From assembly GCA_964580585.1 (NCBI GenBank), contig CAZOKZ010000001.1, forward strand, positions 23,261 to 87,260: a DNA stretch of 64,000 bases, read 5' to 3'. A program made the position numbers and the translations under genes. The notes beneath the pieces were generated by a model that had not been told where the DNA came from, ran no database searches, and worked only from the letters and a program-made list of their open reading frames with translations. The DNA comes from an uncultured Candidatus Sumerlaeota bacterium. Its GTDB lineage: Bacteria; Sumerlaeota; Sumerlaeia; SLMS01; JAHLLQ01. Position 1 is the stretch's first letter. Every line of letters starts with the position of its first letter. Positions 1 through 57,692 of the stretch are shown piece by piece.

Positions 1-99
1 CAACGATCCGATTCGCCGGACGATTCGCCGCGTACCCGCAAGGTACGCGGCGGTCGGGCGAGTCGGCTGAGCAAATGGCAACGCTCGCATTCGGGCGAT

Positions 100-438
100 T
101 TGTTTCTGATATTTATCGTTTTCCTCTTCGTTATTCTGATATTCGGCTTCGATGCGGAAAAAGTTGCCGATCTCCTGTATAACAAAACCGCTGGGTTTAT
201 TTTGGTCATCATGGTTATCGAGTACCTGGTACTCAAAAGCATGGATCGTACGCGGATTTATGGGCTGGAAAACAGCCGTTTACGCGAAGCTCGCCGCACG
301 GATCGCGCGTTGATGAAGCGTGCCCGCGAATTGCTCGATGAAGCTGCCGGTACTTCCTCCGACGATGATGAAGAATCACCGAGCGATTGGAATAAACGCG
401 CTCGCGACGTGGCTGAAGAGCTCTCTCAGCGTTTGTAA
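100..438 (+). CDS. Hypothetical small protein with a hydrophobic N-terminus and a charged C-terminus. The reading frame stays open upstream to position 1, so the gene may be 5'-partial.
   Basis: ORF track; hydrophobic N-terminal segment; no stop in frame back to the window start. Confidence 0.3.
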   Translation: MFLIFIVFLFVILIFGFDAEKVADLLYNKTAGFILVIMVIEYLVLKSMDRTRIYGLENSRLREARRTDRALMKRARELLDEAAGTSSDDDEESPSDWNKRARDVAEELSQRL

Positions 439-50885: not shown

Positions 50886-52166
50886 GTGAAACGAATGGAC
50901 CCATTCCTGTACGACGACGATTTTTCCCCGACCGAATCCGTGGATACAAACGCTCGCGCGCCCATGACCGTCACGCAGGTGACGGCACAAATTCGTAATC
51001 ACCTGGAAAGCCATTTCGGTCGCCTGTGGATTGAGGGAGAAATACGTAACTGGTCCGTGGCAGGGTCCGGGCACGTCTATTTTTCACTCCGCGACGAAGG
51101 CGCCCTGATTTCCGCTGTGATGTGGCGGTCAACCCATCAAAAGCTATCCTTCAACTTCAAAGATGGCGACCTTGTCGAAGCGCGCGGTAAAATTAGTCTC
51201 TTTGAAAAACGTGGTCAGTATCAGATTCTTGTCGATTCGCTCAAGCCTGTGGGCGAGGGGCTGCTTTGGCGTAAATTCATCGAGTTGAAAGCAAAACTCG
51301 AACGAGAAGGTTTATTCGATCCGGTGCATAAAAAAATTATTCCGACTCTTCCCGCAAAAATTGGCGTCATCACATCACCGACGGGTGCGGCAATTCGCGA
51401 CGTACTTTCGATTCTTCGTCGTCGGGCCCCAGGAGTGGAAATTCTCGTCTGGCCTGCACGCGTTCAGGGTGTCGGTGCTGCCCAGGAACTTGCAGAAGGG
51501 GTACGAAAGCTGGCCGCTTCCGGTCTCGTGGATGTGATCATCATCGGTCGTGGTGGGGGATCGCTCGAGGACCTCTGGGAATTTAACGACGAACGCCTTG
51601 CGCGTGAAATCCATGGCGCTCCGATCCCAATTATCTCCGCCGTCGGACACGAAGTCGATTTCACGATCTGCGATTTCGTGGCCGATTTGCGTGCCGCAAC
51701 GCCTTCCGCTGCTGCCGAACTGGTCAGTGCCGATCGTGCGCAATTGCGCCTTCGACTGCTCGAAGGCATTCAACGCATGGATCGCGCACTAGACAATCGG
51801 CTTGCCAATTTGCGTTCGCGATTAGGTCGCGCCAGCAATAGCTATGCACTACGCGAGCCGGAAATTTTACTTCGGAACGCCCAACAACGTGTCGATCTGG
51901 CGTTTGAAACCATGGATGAATCGATGAATCAACGATTGAGCGACTTGCACCACCGCGTGAATCGTTGCCAAGCTGCCTTGCAAGGTCATAATCCCGAATT
52001 GATTTTGCGCAAAGGCTATGCAATCGTTCGAGGTGTTAAGGACGAACGGGTTATCGCGTCGTCGAATAAACTCCGTCCAGGAACACACGTTCATGCATAT
52101 TTCCAGGATGGCCGTGCACGGCTGGTTGCTACGGACGATGCCCCCGATCTGTTCGAGGAGACGTGA
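50886..52166 (+). CDS. xseA: Exodeoxyribonuclease VII large subunit.
   Basis: N-terminal OB fold and catalytic domain similar to XseA. Confidence 0.8.
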   Translation: MKRMDPFLYDDDFSPTESVDTNARAPMTVTQVTAQIRNHLESHFGRLWIEGEIRNWSVAGSGHVYFSLRDEGALISAVMWRSTHQKLSFNFKDGDLVEARGKISLFEKRGQYQILVDSLKPVGEGLLWRKFIELKAKLEREGLFDPVHKKIIPTLPAKIGVITSPTGAAIRDVLSILRRRAPGVEILVWPARVQGVGAAQELAEGVRKLAASGLVDVIIIGRGGGSLEDLWEFNDERLAREIHGAPIPIISAVGHEVDFTICDFVADLRAATPSAAAELVSADRAQLRLRLLEGIQRMDRALDNRLANLRSRLGRASNSYALREPEILLRNAQQRVDLAFETMDESMNQRLSDLHHRVNRCQAALQGHNPELILRKGYAIVRGVKDERVIASSNKLRPGTHVHAYFQDGRARLVATDDAPDLFEET

Positions 52167-52176
52167 GGAGAACAAG

Positions 52177-53400
52177 GTGAAGATCACGTGCAACGGATTC
52201 GCCATTCTGGCGCTCCTCTTCGTCGCCATTTGCTTTCCGGCCATTGGGAATGCAGCCGAAACATGTTCATTTTGTCGGAAAACAATAACCGGCTCCTATA
52301 CGACGTACTCCGTCCCCGGAGAAAATCCACTGCTGGTTTGTACACAATGCAATCAATCCCTGAATCGTTGTGAATTGTGCGGTGTTCCAACCAAAAACAA
52401 GGCGATCAAAACGGGAAACGTCTTGTGCAGTCGATGCATCTCGCACGCAAAACGTTGTTCAATTTGCAATCAGCTCATTAAAGGTACCTATTCGGTTTAT
52501 CAACGTGCAGGCGAATCCGATATCGCCATTTGTCAAAACTGTATTCAAACGAAACCGCGTTGTTCAGCCTGTAATCGACCTTATCTGCAGCGCGATTTAA
52601 GAGCCTATGGGAATGACCTTTGGTGTACGGAATGTTTGGAAAAGACAAAAATTTGCAATCTTTGCAATATTCCGATAAACGATAAAATTTACACTTTGGA
52701 ATACCATAAGGGACAATGGTGCGGGTTTTGTTTCGAACGATCCGAAAAGTGTAGTTTTTGCAGTCGTCCCATGAAAACTGCCGCGGCCCATGTGCTAGAT
52801 GGACGCCAATTATGCGCCGATTGTTACCATTCTTCTATTTCGGGGACAGAGGCAGTGAACTCCATTGCGCATCAGATTGCTCCTTTATACGAAGAGATTC
52901 TTGGACTTCCGGTAACGTTGCCTCCCATTCGTGTTGTGCTGATGGAAGAACTCACCGCAGTGCGAAATAGTCTCCCAACTGCCGAAGGCAAATCGCCGAC
53001 ACGACGGCTTGGAAAACCTTCTCCGTCCCCCGTACTAAAAGAGCTTGGGTTATTTTCAGCCCAAGGCCGAAAAAAACAAATCCTGATACTCGACACACAA
53101 CCGGAAGATATCATGTGGGAAACCATTGCGCACGAACTGGCTCATGCATGGCAATTCGAGCATTTTCCACATTGCACCGATCCCGTTTTGGTCGAAGGCT
53201 TTGCCCAATGGATGGCGGAAAAAATTTGTTATCGCACCCATCATCGTACAGGACTGCAAAACCTCCACAACCGCGACGACGAATACGGCCATGCTTATCG
53301 CACTGTGTCGAACATTGAAATTTTAAAAGGCGAACGTGCCGTCATCGAAGCGCTTTCGACCAACTCCGTCCCCGATTTAACGAAATCAGCGGCCAAATAA
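52177..53400 (+). CDS. Secreted protein with six tandem LIM-like double-CxxC zinc-finger repeats and a C-terminal DA1-like HExxH metallopeptidase domain.
   Basis: GTG start after a GAGGAG RBS; signal peptide; repeats C-x2-C-x16-21-C-x2-C; IAHELAHAWQFEHFPHC zincin motif. Confidence 0.6.
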   Translation: MKITCNGFAILALLFVAICFPAIGNAAETCSFCRKTITGSYTTYSVPGENPLLVCTQCNQSLNRCELCGVPTKNKAIKTGNVLCSRCISHAKRCSICNQLIKGTYSVYQRAGESDIAICQNCIQTKPRCSACNRPYLQRDLRAYGNDLWCTECLEKTKICNLCNIPINDKIYTLEYHKGQWCGFCFERSEKCSFCSRPMKTAAAHVLDGRQLCADCYHSSISGTEAVNSIAHQIAPLYEEILGLPVTLPPIRVVLMEELTAVRNSLPTAEGKSPTRRLGKPSPSPVLKELGLFSAQGRKKQILILDTQPEDIMWETIAHELAHAWQFEHFPHCTDPVLVEGFAQWMAEKICYRTHHRTGLQNLHNRDDEYGHAYRTVSNIEILKGERAVIEALSTNSVPDLTKSAAK

Positions 53401-54132
53401 ATGACACTTGAAAATAAAGTCGTTTGGATTACAGGTTCCGCGCGACGCGTCGGCAAAACCATCGCAATCGAAGCCGCACGCGAAGGCGCCGATATCGTCG
53501 TGCATTGCAATCGTTCTCGAAATGAAGCCGAAACGACCGCTTCTGAAATTCGAGCTATCGGCTCCAAAGCCCTTGTCGTTCAAGGCGATCATGCACAGCG
53601 GGCCGATGTGGAACGCATAATAAACGAAATCGATTCGCACTTTGGACGACTCGACGCATTGGTCAATTCCGCTTCAACATTTCCAACCAAGCCATTTACC
53701 GAAATTTCCACCGAGGAATTTTCATCGACCATCGATGCGAATTTGCGTGGGCCTTTTTTGTGCGCACAACTTGCGCTCCCTCTTCTTCGCGCAGCAAAAC
53801 CCGGGCGAATTGTCAACATCACCGACTGTATGTTGCCTCGTCCCTATCCGAAATACGCTGTCTATTGGTGTGCGAAAGGCGGACTTGATGCTTTGACTCG
53901 CGCACTGGCGAGGGAACTGGCCCCGGACGTGCTCGTAAACGCAGTCGCACCGGGCCCCGTGCTCGCGCCCGATGATATCACGGAACAAAAACGTGAAAAT
54001 ACCATTGCACGAACGTACCTCAAACGGTGGGGGAAACCCGAAGACGTGGCGTGTGCAGTAATCTATTTATTGAAGGCGGAATATACGACTGGTATCTCCG
54101 TCCCCGTAGATGGGGGACGGAGTCTTGGTTAG
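53401..54132 (+). CDS. Short-chain dehydrogenase/reductase (pteridine reductase/FolM-like).
   Basis: TGSARRVG cofactor motif; YxxxK (YWCAKGG). Confidence 0.8.
   Translation: MTLENKVVWITGSARRVGKTIAIEAAREGADIVVHCNRSRNEAETTASEIRAIGSKALVVQGDHAQRADVERIINEIDSHFGRLDALVNSASTFPTKPFTEISTEEFSSTIDANLRGPFLCAQLALPLLRAAKPGRIVNITDCMLPRPYPKYAVYWCAKGGLDALTRALARELAPDVLVNAVAPGPVLAPDDITEQKRENTIARTYLKRWGKPEDVACAVIYLLKAEYTTGISVPVDGGRSLG
54095..54122. terminator. 10-bp inverted repeat CTCCGTCCCC-GTAGATG-GGGGACGGAG overlapping the 3' ends of two convergent, overlapping genes.
   Basis: Read from sequence; built from two copies of the recurrent motif. Confidence 0.4.
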
Positions 54133-55442: not shown

Positions 55443-57692
55443 TCAGAAGTCCGCCTTCAAAACGGCGCCCTTCGCAGCGTTAGTCACCAAGCGACTGTAT
55501 CGTTTCAACCAGCCCTTGGTCACGCGTTGGGGATTGGGAGTCCAATTTTTCCGTCGTTCGGCAAGTTCATCATCGGACACCAGCAACTCGATTTTTTTAT
55601 CATAGATATCGATCGCAATCTTGTCTCCGTTCTGCACCAGACCAATCGTTCCGCCCTCGGCGGCTTCCGGCGAAACGTGACCAATGCATGCACCGCGCGT
55701 CCCACCCGAGAAACGCCCATCGGTAACGAGCGCCACTTGACTGCCGAGGCCACGCCCCATGATGTAACTTGTCGGTGCCAACATCTCCTGCATACCCGGG
55801 CCGCCTTTGGGGCCTTCGTACCGAATGATCACCACATGCCCCGCATCGACTTCCCCCGCCAGAATGCCCTCGCACGCGGCTTCCTGCGATTCATAGACAA
55901 TCGCCGCACCGGTAAATTTCTTCATATTCTCTTCAACGCCCGCCGACTTGACCACGCAACCCTCTGGCGCGAGATTTCCGTACAGAATATTCAAACCACC
56001 CTGTTTTGAATATGCCTTTGGCACCGTCCGAATACAATCGTACGGATCGAACTTGGCGGGTTTGACGGGATAGGTTCCACCGAGTTCGGAAACCGAGCGC
56101 GTCTTCGTCGCCTTTACCATGCCGTCGCCTTCGTGGAACGTCGCTTTTGCAATGGTGGCTCCGTCGTCGGCGAGGCCATCGAACACGAGCACGCCAACGG
56201 GGGACGGAGTCTTTCCACGTTCCCACAAAACCGCAACGGACTCGCCGTCCAGGTCAGCCACACACGCCGCCGTGCCTTGATCGCCGCGATGCAGCCATCC
56301 GTCGATGAATTGGCTGAGCGAAGCGCCCGAAACCGTTGCATCTGTTGTAAATTGGGCACGAACCGCTGCTGAATTTTGCGCATTCCAAGCGGCTGCAAAT
56401 GCCGCCGCCAGCGCCTCGGTTGTTGCCGTCTTAACCAACGTTGTCACGCCACCGGGGATATCTGAACGTGCTCCAGCCCCCTGCATCTTGCCAAGCGCGG
56501 TGTGCAGTTCGCGCACGGACTTGCCTGTCGGCACTGCACCCGACTGGTTCAGCACCAACGCCTCGCGCGCAACCTTCGCGCCGCGAATATCCCAGGCATC
56601 GATATTTTCACCGAGCGTTTTCCCCGTCACCGTCAACACGTTTTCGTTCAACACGCCCGGCATGCCTCGACGAATTTCGCCGAGAATTGTATGAATACCG
56701 CCCGCGTGATGCACGTCTTCGATGTGGTAAGCCGACGAAGGCGAAACCTTGCTGATGTTGGGCGTCGAAGCGGAAATTTCGTTCAGGTCTTTCATCGTGA
56801 AATCGACTTCGGCTTCGCTCGCCACCGCCATCGTATGCAGCACCGTATTTGTCGAGCCACCCATCGCCACATCGAGCACCATCGCATTGTGGAACGCCTC
56901 GCGTGTGGCGATGTCGCGTGGTTTGATGTCCTTATCCACGAGTTCCAGGATCTGGCGCGCAGCACGGCGATACAGCTCAATGCGTGATTCGCTCGTGGCA
57001 AGCACCGTTCCGTTGCCGGGCAGCGCCAGACCCAATGCTTCATTCAAGCAGTTCATCGAGTTTGCCGTGAACATCCCACTGCATGAACCACACGTTGGGC
57101 AGGCAAAATCTTCTAGTGTTTTTAGCTGCGCATCGTCGATTTTACCGATTTTGCGCGCACCGACACCTTCGAATACCGAAATCAAATCCACTGTTTTGCC
57201 GTCCGGCGTTACACCTGCTTCCATCGGGCCACCGCTGACAAAAAGCGTTGGAATATTCAACCGCATCGTGGCCATCATCATGCCCGGCACGATCTTGTCG
57301 CAGTTCGGAATGCAAATCATTCCGTCGAAACAATGAGCCTCGACCACGCTTTCCACGCAGTCTGCGATCAATTCGCGACTCGGCAGGCTGTACTTCATGC
57401 CAAAGTGCCCCATCGCGATGCCGTCATCGACACCAATGGTATTGAACAAGAACGGAACGCCACCCGCTTCGCGAACGGCTTGTTTGACAAACTGGCCGAC
57501 CGCGTCCAGATGTGCGTGACCCGGAATAATGTCAATGTAACTGCACGCAATGGCGATAAACGGCTTGTTTTCGTCGCCATCGACAAAGTTACCCGTGGCC
57601 TTGAGCAGCGAACGATGCGGCGCGCGCTCGAAGCCTTTCTTAACGGTATCCGACCGCATTGCGCGTGGTTTGCCGTTTCCTTGTTCCGTCAT
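55443..57692 (-). CDS. ilvD: Dihydroxy-acid dehydratase with an inserted domain of about 140 aa (NTF2/SnoaL-like) in the C-terminal half.
   Basis: ILVD_EDD signatures (CDKIVPG, SGGTRG, Cys ligands); 749 aa against typical lengths of 560-620; insertion between HTILGEI and AYSKQGGL. Confidence 0.85.

What the first reader, a model, noticed from the sequence alone, without database searches (positions are those of the whole stretch)
52177..53400. Bacterial protein with six LIM-like zinc-finger repeats fused to a DA1-like HExxH peptidase
After a signal peptide come six tandem units of C-x2-C-x16-21-C-x2-C (for example CSFCRKTITGSYTTYSVPGENPLLVCTQC), each with a conserved hydrophobic-Gly-Tyr core. 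Then comes a C-terminal domain carrying IAHELAHAW and downstream His/Cys residues. LIM domains followed by an HExxHAW peptidase is the layout of plant DA1 ubiquitin-activated peptidases, and LIM-like fingers are rare in bacteria. The protein is secreted, and its start sits on a GAGGAG RBS immediately after xseA.
Basis: partly seen in the sequence, partly recalled or inferred. Interest (0 to 1): 0.6.

Follow-up and report, generated by a model that had tools for sequence, protein, structure and literature searches.

The report
Bacterial exported LIM-finger DA1-type metallopeptidase
This gene encodes a bacterial relative of the plant growth-control protease DA1: a signal peptide, three double zinc-finger (LIM-like) modules and a zinc peptidase. 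It belongs to a widespread but unstudied bacterial family whose existence has already been noted in the literature.

Summary
Window 52177-53400 (+) encodes a 407-aa protein with a signal-peptide-like N-terminus, twelve in-register CxxC motifs forming six Cys4 fingers, and a C-terminal HELAH...E domain.

The fingers are organised as three two-finger LIM-like modules. Odd and even fingers differ, and family members carry 4, 8, 12 or 16 CxxC motifs.

The DA1 interpretation is supported. A profile of 119 bacterial relatives aligns with a profile of 20 plant DA1 proteins at 99.8% probability (E 9e-30). The alignment is collinear over LIM, LIM-like and peptidase regions, and the HExxHAW-x13-EG and YGxG(F/Y)R motifs are in register. 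The window protein alone misses Pfam DA1-like, and it passes Pfam LIM only marginally.

The family is broad: 1795 50%-identity clusters at E<=1e-10, and 111 species representatives, the listed ones spanning about ten phylum-level lineages. It has no UIMs and no conserved gene neighbours. Every non-Chloroflexota member among the 82 loci examined has an export signal, which is twin-arginine-like in Acidobacteriota. Chloroflexota members have none.

Bacterial LIM-peptidase homologues of DA1 were already reported by Dong 2017, citing Burroughs 2011. This is therefore a new member of a known but uncharacterised kind. The wide, deeply divergent bacterial distribution argues against recent transfer from eukaryotes.

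The parts
52165..52170 (+). Shine-Dalgarno-like GAGGAG, 6 nt upstream of the GTG start, overlapping the xseA stop codon (52164-52166)
   Evidence: Read directly from the sequence. Homologues also start with a short M-K/R n-region followed by a hydrophobic segment, which favours this start over the database start at ATG 52114 (P0001, 428 aa).
52177..53400 (+). Complete gene for the 407-aa LIM-like / DA1-type metallopeptidase (GTG start, TAA stop)
   Evidence: ORF and translation. There are 318 cluster representatives at E<=1e-30 and 1795 at E<=1e-10. Opposite-strand ORFs here are all shorter than 90 aa.
52177..52254 (+). Predicted Sec-type signal peptide (aa 1-26: MK / GFAILALLFVAICF / PAIGNA, with predicted cleavage before AETC)
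   Evidence: Sequence features. pLDDT <50 for residues 1-9 and 15-23. An equivalent hydrophobic N-terminus ending 2-6 aa before the first Cys occurs in all ~55 non-Chloroflexota homologues and in none of ~26 Chloroflexota homologues. No signal-peptide predictor was available.
52264..52437 (+). LIM-like module 1 (fingers 1 and 2; aa 30-87; CSFC-x21-CTQC-x6-CELC-x15-CSRC)
   Evidence: pLDDT is ~90 or higher.
52456..52635 (+). LIM-like module 2 (fingers 3 and 4; aa 94-153; CSIC-x21-CQNC-x6-CSAC-x17-CTEC). It aligns with the canonical LIM domain of plant DA1.
   Evidence: hhalign aligns window residues 93-158 with DA1 residues 116-175. The PDB profile alignment to FHL1 LIM gives the same register.
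52654..52824 (+). LIM-like module 3 (fingers 5 and 6; aa 160-216; CNLC-x18-CGFC-x6-CSFC-x17-CADC). It is the module present in all relatives and aligns with DA1's 'LIM-like' domain.
   Evidence: Pfam LIM 23.7 bits at aa 160-219. The eight Cys are invariant in 10 relatives and at least 90% conserved in 119. The LxDGRxxCxxCxxxA(V/I) motif is shared with DA1.
52825..53376 (+). DA1-type gluzincin peptidase domain (aa 217-400): N-terminal helix, small beta-sheet, HExxH helix, Glu helix and C-terminal helical bundle
   Evidence: Domain model with pLDDT 88, pTM 0.85. hhalign to the DA1 peptidase region. Sub-threshold Pfam hits to the zincin (HExxH) families DUF6782, BSP, M1, SprT-like and M78.
52984..53034 (+). 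Low-confidence Pro/Ser/Lys-rich loop (aa 270-286) inside the peptidase domain, at a site of variable length in the family
   Evidence: pLDDT <50. Most relatives have an alignment gap here, and plant DA1 has a longer insert at the same position.
53131..53145 (+). HELAH zinc-binding and catalytic motif (H319, E320, H323)
   Evidence: Invariant in 119 relatives. Aligns with HEMMH of plant DA1. The H-to-A (AEMMA) mutant of DA1 no longer generated the DA2 cleavage product (Dong 2017, PMC5322733).
53194..53199 (+). E340-G341, the predicted third zinc ligand (HExxH-x16-E). It aligns with the second Glu of DA1's EEG.
   Evidence: Invariant. In register with DA1. Dong 2017 describes the DA1 motif as HEMMHx15EE.
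53284..53289 (+). Y370-G371 of the RxDxYGxG(Y/F)R motif, a candidate catalytic or transition-state Tyr
   Evidence: Y370 is invariant and G371 at least 90% conserved. Aligns with YGDGFR of plant DA1. The catalytic role is inferred by analogy with other gluzincins and was not tested.

Best explanation
The gene encodes a bacterial homologue of the LIM / LIM-like / peptidase core of plant DA1. The protein is made with a Sec-type signal peptide and is probably exported to the cell envelope.

The mature protein would be an array of three LIM-like double zinc fingers (six Cys4 sites) attached to a gluzincin metallopeptidase. The catalytic zinc would be held by H319, H323 and E340, with E320 as the general base and Y370 assisting.

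The proposed mechanism is as follows. The LIM-like array acts as a peptide- or protein-binding platform: tandem LIM domains are known to bind extended peptides along their length. It would present a bound polypeptide to the adjoining active site for endoproteolytic cleavage.

The protein has no UIMs, so it cannot be ubiquitin-activated as DA1 is. How its activity is controlled is unknown.

Shown here: the sequence anatomy, the homology to DA1, conservation of the catalytic residues, LIM-like structural similarity, and family-wide conservation of the export signal outside Chloroflexota.

Inferred: actual export, zinc occupancy of the fingers, peptidase activity, and the substrate-recruiting role of the fingers.
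For: Anatomy.

LIM-like nature: Pfam LIM above its cut-off, a PDB profile search topped by FHL/PINCH/paxillin LIMs, and Foldseek top hits to tandem LIM crystal structures. CxxC counts in relatives peak at 4, 8, 12 and 16, so the unit is two fingers.

DA1 homology: hhalign 99.8%, E 9e-30, 281 collinear columns. BLASTP E 3e-9. PF12315 hits in 8 of 10 relatives. A plant-only DA1 HMM hits family members on a continuum from 90 bits down to 12.7 bits for the window protein.

Active enzyme: H319, E320, H323, E340, G341 and Y370 are invariant in 119 diverse sequences.

Fold: confident models with pLDDT 86.5 and 88. They show a beta-sheet, an HExxH helix and a Glu helix.

Export: an N-terminal signal is present in all ~55 non-Chloroflexota homologues, and 5 of 5 Acidobacteriota homologues carry an RR motif.

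Literature: Dong 2017 reports bacterial (Roseiflexus) homologues with four CxxC/H pairs and calls the LIM-like domain ancient, citing Burroughs et al. 2011.
Against: The window protein alone does not reach Pfam's DA1-like threshold. It scores only 12.7 bits against a plant-only DA1 HMM.

The isolated peptidase-domain model has no significant PDB match. The best E is 0.12, although the list is enriched in zincins such as anthrax lethal factor, SPRTN, M61 and IrrE.

Twenty-four thiolate zinc ligands in an extracytoplasmic, potentially oxidising compartment is unusual, and no signal-peptide predictor could be run.

No conserved neighbouring gene points to a substrate or pathway. No bacterial member has been studied experimentally.
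Confidence: 0.72

Rival explanations
1. The protein has the same fold and is exported, but outside the cytoplasm the 24 finger cysteines form disulfide bonds rather than binding zinc. The 'fingers' would then be disulfide-stapled structural or binding knots attached to the peptidase.
For: The export signal is conserved. Cys4 thiolate sites are prone to oxidation in the periplasm (general knowledge). All ligands here are Cys, with none of the His found in canonical LIM or in relatives such as P0150.
Against: The same Cys pattern is kept in the signal-less, presumably cytoplasmic Chloroflexota orthologues and in zinc-binding eukaryotic LIM domains. Acidobacteriota members carry twin-arginine-like signals, and that route exports pre-folded, cofactor-loaded proteins (the inference is from general knowledge of Tat). 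Many host lineages are reported from anoxic habitats (my general knowledge, not tested here).
Confidence: 0.15
2. The N-terminal hydrophobic segment is an uncleaved membrane anchor. The LIM-peptidase would then be a membrane-tethered processing protease. Its catalytic part would most likely face the periplasm, or less likely the cytoplasm.
For: As I recall from its abstract (the paper could not be read here), Burroughs et al. 2011 describe prokaryotic LIM, B-box and AN1 domains as partners of membrane-associated peptidases. The hydrophobic stretch is ~13-18 residues, at the long end for a signal peptide.
Against: There is a helix-breaking Pro followed by a small-x-small motif (G-N-A; A-N-A, S-N-A or A-K-A in relatives) 2-4 residues before the first finger, which is typical of signal peptidase I sites. 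The positively charged n-region predicts an N-in, C-out orientation, so a cytoplasmic catalytic domain is unlikely.
Confidence: 0.2
3. The resemblance to DA1 is convergent or limited to generic motifs: any zinc ribbon repeats plus any HExxH zincin. The protein would then belong to another zincin family such as DUF6782, BSP or M1-like.
For: For the window protein itself, the Pfam hits to DUF6782 (21.3 bits), BSP (21.6) and M1 (18.5) are as good as or better than any DA1-like hit. DUF6782 matches 10 of 10 relatives, against 8 of 10 for DA1-like.
Against: All of those hits cover only ~30-60 residues around HExxH and fall below their cut-offs. The DA1 relationship extends collinearly over 281 columns. 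It includes the LIM, LIM-like and inter-domain helix regions and the LPR-x-HExxHAW-x13-EG and YGxGFR motifs, at E 9e-30. Intermediates such as P0150 score 90 bits against a plant-only DA1 HMM.
Confidence: 0.04
4. The gene was acquired recently from a eukaryote (plant) by horizontal transfer.
For: LIM domains and DA1 are usually regarded as eukaryotic or plant-specific. For example, Zhao et al. 2014 found no DA1-like genes in 249 bacterial genomes (PMC4007552).
Against: Identity to plant DA1 is only ~24%. The bacterial family is far more diverse than the plant one: mean column identity is 16% across 119 sequences, against 64% across 20 angiosperms. It occurs in Sumerlaeota, Omnitrophota, Zixibacteria, CSSED10-310, Ignavibacteria, Acidobacteriota, Gemmatimonadota, Chloroflexota and Bacillota. 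It lacks UIMs and has bacterial export signals. The pattern fits a bacterial origin for the DA1 core, as already suggested (Dong 2017).
Confidence: 0.02

Closest known systems
Plant DA1 / DAR ubiquitin-activated LIM-peptidases (Pfam PF12315 DA1-like plus PF00412 LIM)
   Same: The order is collinear: LIM, then LIM-like (two treble-clef fingers joined by a 6-7 residue linker), then an inter-domain helix, then the peptidase. The shared motifs are LxDGRxxCxxCxxxA(V/I), (L)P-x5-6-AHExxHAW-x13-EG-x-x-Q and YGxG(F/Y)R, with identical HExxH-to-E spacing.
   Different: There are no UIMs and no long N-terminal region. A signal peptide sits in their place. There are three LIM-like modules rather than one LIM plus one LIM-like. 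All 24 finger ligands are Cys, whereas DA1 uses His at several positions. The loop between the sheet strands is much shorter. Identity is ~24%, and the window protein falls below Pfam's DA1-like threshold. Ubiquitin-dependent activation cannot apply.
Prokaryotic LIM-domain peptidase fusions noted by Burroughs, Iyer & Aravind 2011 and by Dong et al. 2017 (Roseiflexus homologues)
   Same: It is the same kind of protein: bacterial CxxC/H pairs of LIM type followed by the DA1-type metallopeptidase. The Chloroflexota members found here, in Ktedonobacterales, Thermogemmatispora and Anaerolineae, belong to the same family.
   Different: The window protein belongs to the signal-peptide-bearing, three-module branch typical of Sumerlaeota, Omnitrophota and Zixibacteria. 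The Chloroflexota branch is mostly two-module and signal-less. I could not read the 2011 paper, which is not held. I therefore cannot say whether this split was described there.
Eukaryotic tandem LIM proteins (FHL1-3, PINCH1, Lhx3, LMO4)
   Same: These give the best sequence-profile and structural matches for the finger array. The fingers alternate between two types, and tandem modules form an extended rod.
   Different: The inter-finger linker is 6 residues instead of 2, so each finger keeps its own terminal helix. The ligand sets are all Cys. The array is fused to a protease and preceded by an export signal.
Gluzincin metallopeptidases of clan MA (M1 aminopeptidases, BSP, DUF6782, SprT/SPRTN-like minimal zincins)
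   Same: An HExxH helix is followed by a helix carrying the Glu third ligand, and there is a conserved downstream Tyr. Weak profile and fold matches exist.
   Different: No match reaches a family threshold. There is no GxMEN exopeptidase motif. The domain is small (~185 aa), and no significantly similar solved structure was found.

Membership tests
LIM domain (PF00412) | Profile match at or above Pfam's gathering score | tested here: met
   23.7 bits against a cut-off of 22.9, E 6e-5, at aa 160-219 (fingers 5 and 6). The margin is small. Six of 10 relatives match at E<=1 (best, P0008, 30.1 bits, above the cut-off).
LIM domain (PF00412) | Eight zinc ligands in two fingers with intra-finger spacers of ~16-23 residues | tested here: met
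   Three modules have 8 Cys each. The spacers are 21/15, 21/17 and 18/17, and one spacer (15) is a residue short of the usual range.
LIM domain (PF00412) | The two fingers are separated by exactly 2 residues (C-x2-C-x2-C-x2-C core) | tested here: not met
   All inter-finger linkers are 6 residues. Alignments to FHL1 need a 4-residue gap. This matches the 7-residue linker of DA1's 'LIM-like' domain. The fingers are therefore 'LIM-like', not canonical LIM.
LIM domain (PF00412) | Structural similarity to solved LIM domains | tested here: met
   The Foldseek top hits are tandem LIM structures: 7d2t PINCH1 LIM4-5 (E 2e-4, prob 1.00) and 2rgt Lhx3 LIM1-2 (E 6e-3). TM-scores are low (0.33 on the target) because the relative module orientation differs.
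LIM domain (PF00412) | Binds two Zn(II) ions per module | not testable with these tools
   This needs metal analysis of the purified protein.
DA1-like peptidase (PF12315) | Profile match at or above Pfam's gathering score (25 bits) | tested here: not met
   The window protein gives no PF12315 hit even at E<=10. Relatives score 20.4-26.6 bits, and only P0010 passes here. P0111 also carries a precomputed PF12315 assignment.
DA1-like peptidase (PF12315) | Homology to bona fide plant DA1 over the peptidase and the preceding LIM-like region | tested here: met
   hhalign of A2 against A4 gives 99.8% probability, E 9e-30, over 281 columns, aligning window 93-399 with DA1 116-476. BLASTP gives E 3e-9.
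DA1-like peptidase (PF12315) | HExxH-x15-EE type active site (Dong 2017) plus the C-terminal YGDGFR motif | tested here: met
   HELAH-x16-E340-G341 aligns with HEMMH-x15-E-E-G, and YGHAYR aligns with YGDGFR. H, E, H, E, G and Y are invariant in 119 relatives.
DA1-like peptidase (PF12315) | N-terminal UIMs and activation by ubiquitylation (the defining regulation of DA1 proper) | tested here: not met
   The first finger begins 3 residues after the predicted signal cleavage site. No UIM or other N-terminal domain appears in Pfam scans.
DA1-like peptidase (PF12315) | Endopeptidase activity dependent on the HExxH histidines | not testable with these tools
   This is shown only for Arabidopsis DA1 (PMC5322733).
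Gluzincin / zincin fold (clan MA) | HExxH on a helix, a third ligand Glu on the following helix, and a mixed beta-sheet N-terminal to them | tested here: met
   DSSP of the models gives strands 291-296 and 299-305, helix 310-329 (HELAH at 319-323) and helix 336-353 (E340).
Gluzincin / zincin fold (clan MA) | Significant structural match to a solved zincin | tested here: inconclusive

The most novel reading that the evidence does not exclude
The branch of the family carrying a signal peptide, including this protein, would be a truly extracytoplasmic multi-zinc-finger protease. A six-finger LIM-like array would be exported across the membrane by Sec in most lineages. In Acidobacteriota it would be exported by Tat as a pre-folded, zinc-loaded protein. 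In the cell envelope the array would capture extended polypeptides and feed them to the DA1-type active site. That would make it the first LIM-type zinc-finger machine operating outside the cytoplasm. It would also be the likely bacterial source of the catalytic core that plants later placed under ubiquitin control.
Probability: 0.35. Interest if true: 0.55.

Novelty: new member of a known kind. Interest (0 to 1): 0.3.

Why it matters
DA1 peptidases are important regulators of plant organ and seed size, and parts of the plant literature still describe them as plant-specific. LIM domains are likewise often called eukaryote-specific.

This locus belongs to a large, deeply divergent bacterial family that carries the whole LIM / LIM-like / peptidase core. 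The family includes cultured Thermogemmatispora species. It offers simple, ubiquitin-independent models for the still unsolved structure and catalytic mechanism of DA1-type peptidases.

The conserved export signals raise a biochemical question: how do Cys4 zinc fingers survive, or what do they become, outside the cytoplasm?

None of this changes current concepts, and the existence of bacterial homologues was already published.

Tried and rejected
- **Peptidase domain alone.** Foldseek of this domain against the PDB gave no significant match. No solved DA1-type structure was found by sequence profile either.
- **NCBIfam.** Only noise was returned.
- **Word-indexed homologue search.** It recovered only 10-20 relatives even with a 119-sequence profile. 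The exhaustive representative search was needed to see the size of the family.
- **Plant-only DA1 HMM.** It scores the window protein at only 12.7 bits, so single-profile methods nearly miss the relationship.
- **Gene-neighbourhood analysis.** Across 83 loci there was no partner conserved beyond lineage-level synteny. xseA and the SDR gene recur in only one other locus each. The TerB/radical-SAM genes near P0004 and P0006 and the TIM-barrel and AI-2E genes in Zixibacteria and Ktedonobacteria are lineage-specific.
- **Upstream ATG at 52114 (the database start, P0001).** It is disfavoured. It overlaps xseA by 53 nt, lacks an RBS as good as GAGGAG, and adds a charged extension that homologues lack. 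Its 'SRRREEN' is not a convincing Tat motif.
- **Downstream His/Cys residues.** They were rejected because they are not conserved.
- **Literature and source organism.** Burroughs et al. 2011 could not be read. The exact source contig of the window was not on record, and cluster look-up gave no names. The organism is therefore unidentified. The closest homologues are in Sumerlaeota MAGs at ~40% identity.
Full report
**What is there**

Window 52177-53400 (+) is a single ORF (GTG start, TAA stop) of 407 codons. It follows xseA: Pfam Exonuc_VII_L at E 3e-91, with its stop codon at 52164-52166. GAGGAG lies at 52165-52170, six bases before the GTG. The ORF abuts a short-chain dehydrogenase gene that starts at 53401. 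Opposite-strand ORFs inside the gene are all under 90 aa.

The protein contains 28 Cys and 12 CxxC motifs. Twenty thousand shuffles of the same sequence gave a mean of 1.8 motifs and never more than 8. The motifs form six CxxC-xn-CxxC units with spacers of 21, 15, 21, 17, 18 and 17 residues, joined by linkers of exactly 6 residues. IAHELAHAW is at aa 317-325.
- The spacer range is 15-21.
- The I-x-G-x-Y core occurs only in odd fingers.
- The His/Cys residues downstream of HExxH are not conserved.

**The repeat unit is a two-finger, LIM-like module**

- Odd fingers (I-x-G-x-Y) and even fingers (CxxCxxP ... G/D-x-x-L/W-C) differ. The three odd-plus-even pairs align with each other at 28-30% identity, with all eight Cys in register.
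- Among 157 family proteins, the number of CxxC motifs peaks at 4, 8, 12 and 16. Evolution therefore adds or removes pairs of fingers.
- Pfam LIM matches fingers 5 and 6 just above its gathering score (23.7 vs 22.9 bits).
- A family profile searched against all PDB sequences returns FHL1, FHL2, FHL3, paxillin and PINCH LIM domains first (E 1e-5 to 3e-3).
- The full-length AlphaFold model is confident (mean pLDDT 86.5, pTM 0.73; pLDDT falls below 50 only at residues 1-9, 15-23, 270-286 and 405-407). Its best Foldseek matches are tandem-LIM crystal structures: PINCH1 LIM4-5 at E 2e-4 and probability 1.00, and Lhx3 LIM1-2.
- The one defining LIM feature that fails is the two-residue inter-finger linker, which is six residues here. 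Each finger therefore keeps its own short terminal helix. That is the arrangement of the 'LIM-like' domain that Dong et al. defined in DA1.

**The C-terminal domain is a DA1-type gluzincin**

The window protein on its own gives no hit to Pfam DA1-like. It gives only sub-threshold hits of ~30-60 residues to several zincin families: DUF6782, BSP, M1, SprT-like and M78. Eight of its ten nearest relatives do hit PF12315 at 20-26.6 bits, and one exceeds the cut-off.

To test the relationship properly, I retrieved genuine plant DA1 proteins. The bait was a sequence recalled from memory, used only as a bait. The hits are database proteins named DA1 that carry PF12315 plus PF00412. I aligned 20 of them.
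- BLASTP of the window protein against Theobroma cacao DA1 gives a collinear 229-residue alignment (24% identity, E 3e-9).
- hhalign of the 119-sequence bacterial alignment against the plant alignment gives 99.8% probability, E 9e-30, over 281 columns.
- In that alignment, window residues 93-399 match DA1 residues 116-476. Module 2 aligns with DA1's LIM, and module 3 with DA1's LIM-like domain.
- LxDGRxxCxxCxxxA(V/I), the inter-domain helix, (L)P..AHExxHAW-x13-EG..Q and YGxG(F/Y)R are all in register.
- A plant-only DA1 HMM hits bacterial family members along a continuum, from 90 bits (P0150) down to 12.7 bits for the window protein. The window protein sits at the divergent end of a connected family.

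Across 119 diverse relatives the only invariant residues are H319, E320, H323, E340, G341 and Y370. That is the set expected for an active HExxH...E gluzincin with a helper Tyr.

The domain model (pLDDT 88, pTM 0.85) has the sheet / HExxH-helix / Glu-helix order of zincins. It has no significant match in the PDB: the best E is 0.12, and the list is enriched in zincins. No solved structure of this peptidase type was detectable in the PDB copy searched.

**Family, distribution and context**

- The exhaustive search found 318 cluster representatives at E<=1e-30, 1795 at E<=1e-10 and 3562 at E<=1e-3.
- A motif-seeded scan of one genome per species found 111 relatives. The 80 listed come from Sumerlaeota (closest, ~40% identity), Omnitrophota, CSSED10-310, Zixibacteria, Ignavibacteria, Acidobacteriota, Gemmatimonadota, Hinthialibacteria, Bacillota and many Chloroflexota. 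The Chloroflexota include cultured Thermogemmatispora species.
- No neighbouring gene is conserved beyond lineage-level synteny. xseA and the SDR recur in only one other locus each. The gene behaves as a stand-alone function, and its tight packing here says little about its role.
- The bacterial family is much more divergent than the angiosperm DA1 set: mean column identity is 16% against 64%. This argues against recent acquisition from plants and fits the published view that the LIM-like/peptidase core is ancient and bacterial.

**Export**

The N-terminus reads MK / GFAILALLFVAICF / P-AIGNA / AETC. It has a positive n-region, a 13-residue hydrophobic core, a helix breaker and a small-x-small site three residues before the first finger. 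The model has low confidence there (pLDDT <50 for residues 1-9 and 15-23).

Across 82 loci the pattern is sharp:
- Every non-Chloroflexota homologue (~55) has such a segment ending 2-6 residues before the first Cys.
- All ~26 Chloroflexota homologues start about eight residues before the first Cys, with no hydrophobic segment.
- The five Acidobacteriota members all carry RR immediately before the hydrophobic core (MRRRTFLSF, MDRRAFI, MDRRLFL, SRRSMLL, MRRRLLV), which resembles twin-arginine signals.

I could not run a dedicated predictor, so export remains a well-supported prediction rather than a result. If it is true, a protein with 24 zinc-ligand cysteines works outside the cytoplasm, which is unusual. 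The fingers might hold zinc there, or they might be oxidised to disulfides. The tools cannot decide between these.

**Most likely mechanism**

After export and signal cleavage, the three LIM-like modules form an extended binding platform. The adjoining gluzincin site (zinc on H319/H323/E340, with E320 as base and Y370 assisting) cleaves the bound polypeptide.

The binding role is inferred from what tandem LIM domains do in eukaryotes, where they bind extended peptides along the array. It also fits the Burroughs et al. 2011 conclusion that prokaryotic LIM, B-box and AN1 fingers partner membrane-associated peptidases. I recall that conclusion from the abstract; the paper itself could not be read. 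The protein has no UIMs, so DA1's ubiquitin-dependent activation cannot apply. The substrate and the regulation are unknown.

**Comparison with the known, and verdict**

The protein works like, and is homologous to, the LIM / LIM-like / peptidase core of plant DA1. It is not a DA1 orthologue in the regulatory sense: it has no UIMs, falls below Pfam's PF12315 threshold, and has an export signal and three all-Cys LIM-like modules.

Bacterial homologues of this architecture were already reported (Roseiflexus; Dong 2017, citing Burroughs 2011). Some plant papers nevertheless still call DA1 plant-specific. Searches of the held literature found no experimental study of a bacterial member.

It is a new member of a known, computationally described but experimentally untouched kind. 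The points of residual interest are:
- the clean split between exported and cytoplasmic branches;
- the Tat-like signals in Acidobacteriota;
- the prospect of a simple bacterial model for DA1-type peptidases.

Interest 0.3.

Noticed in passing
window 55443-57692 (-): The dihydroxy-acid/6-phosphogluconate dehydratase (IlvD/Edd) homologue is 749 aa. The Pfam N-terminal domain ends at aa 363 and the C-terminal domain starts at aa 552. About 190 residues between the two conserved domains match no Pfam family at E<=1e-5, which makes this an unusually long insertion for the family.
   Followed up: no
L001-L082 (homologue loci), N-termini of the target genes: There is a sharp phyletic split. All ~26 Chloroflexota homologues lack any hydrophobic N-terminus, and all ~55 homologues from other phyla have a signal-peptide-like segment. 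Acidobacteriota members (L035, L047, L049, L071, L078) all carry a twin-arginine-like RR motif.
   Followed up: partly
window 52114-52176 (+): The public database version of this protein (P0001, 428 aa) starts at ATG 52114. That start overlaps xseA by 53 nt and adds MHGWLLRTMPPICSRRREENK. The GTG at 52177, with GAGGAG six bases upstream, fits the homologues' N-termini better, so the deposited start is probably too far upstream.
   Followed up: partly
L018 3861-5983 and 13 other Zixibacteria/Ignavibacteria loci: In 14 loci the LIM-peptidase gene is directly preceded on the same strand by two conserved genes. One encodes a 428-aa protein with a hydrophobic, signal-peptide-like N-terminus and no Pfam match. 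The other encodes a xylose-isomerase-like TIM-barrel protein (PF01261). This may be a lineage-specific operon or mere synteny.
   Followed up: partly
window 54096-54122 (+): A 10-bp, GC-rich stem-loop (CTCCGTCCCC...GGGGACGGAG) lies just inside the 3' end of the SDR gene. That is where the xseA / LIM-peptidase / SDR gene string meets the convergent GAF-histidine-kinase gene. It may be a terminator shared by the two transcription units.
   Followed up: no
P0150 (metagenomic relative, 390 aa): This signal-peptide-bearing relative has fingers that use H-x2-C in the second ligand pair (YHKHC, FHYDC, FHRKC, YHRNC), as canonical LIM finger 1 does. It scores 90 bits against a plant-only DA1 HMM, far above other bacterial members. 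It could be a useful bridge sequence for tracing the origin of plant DA1.
   Followed up: no
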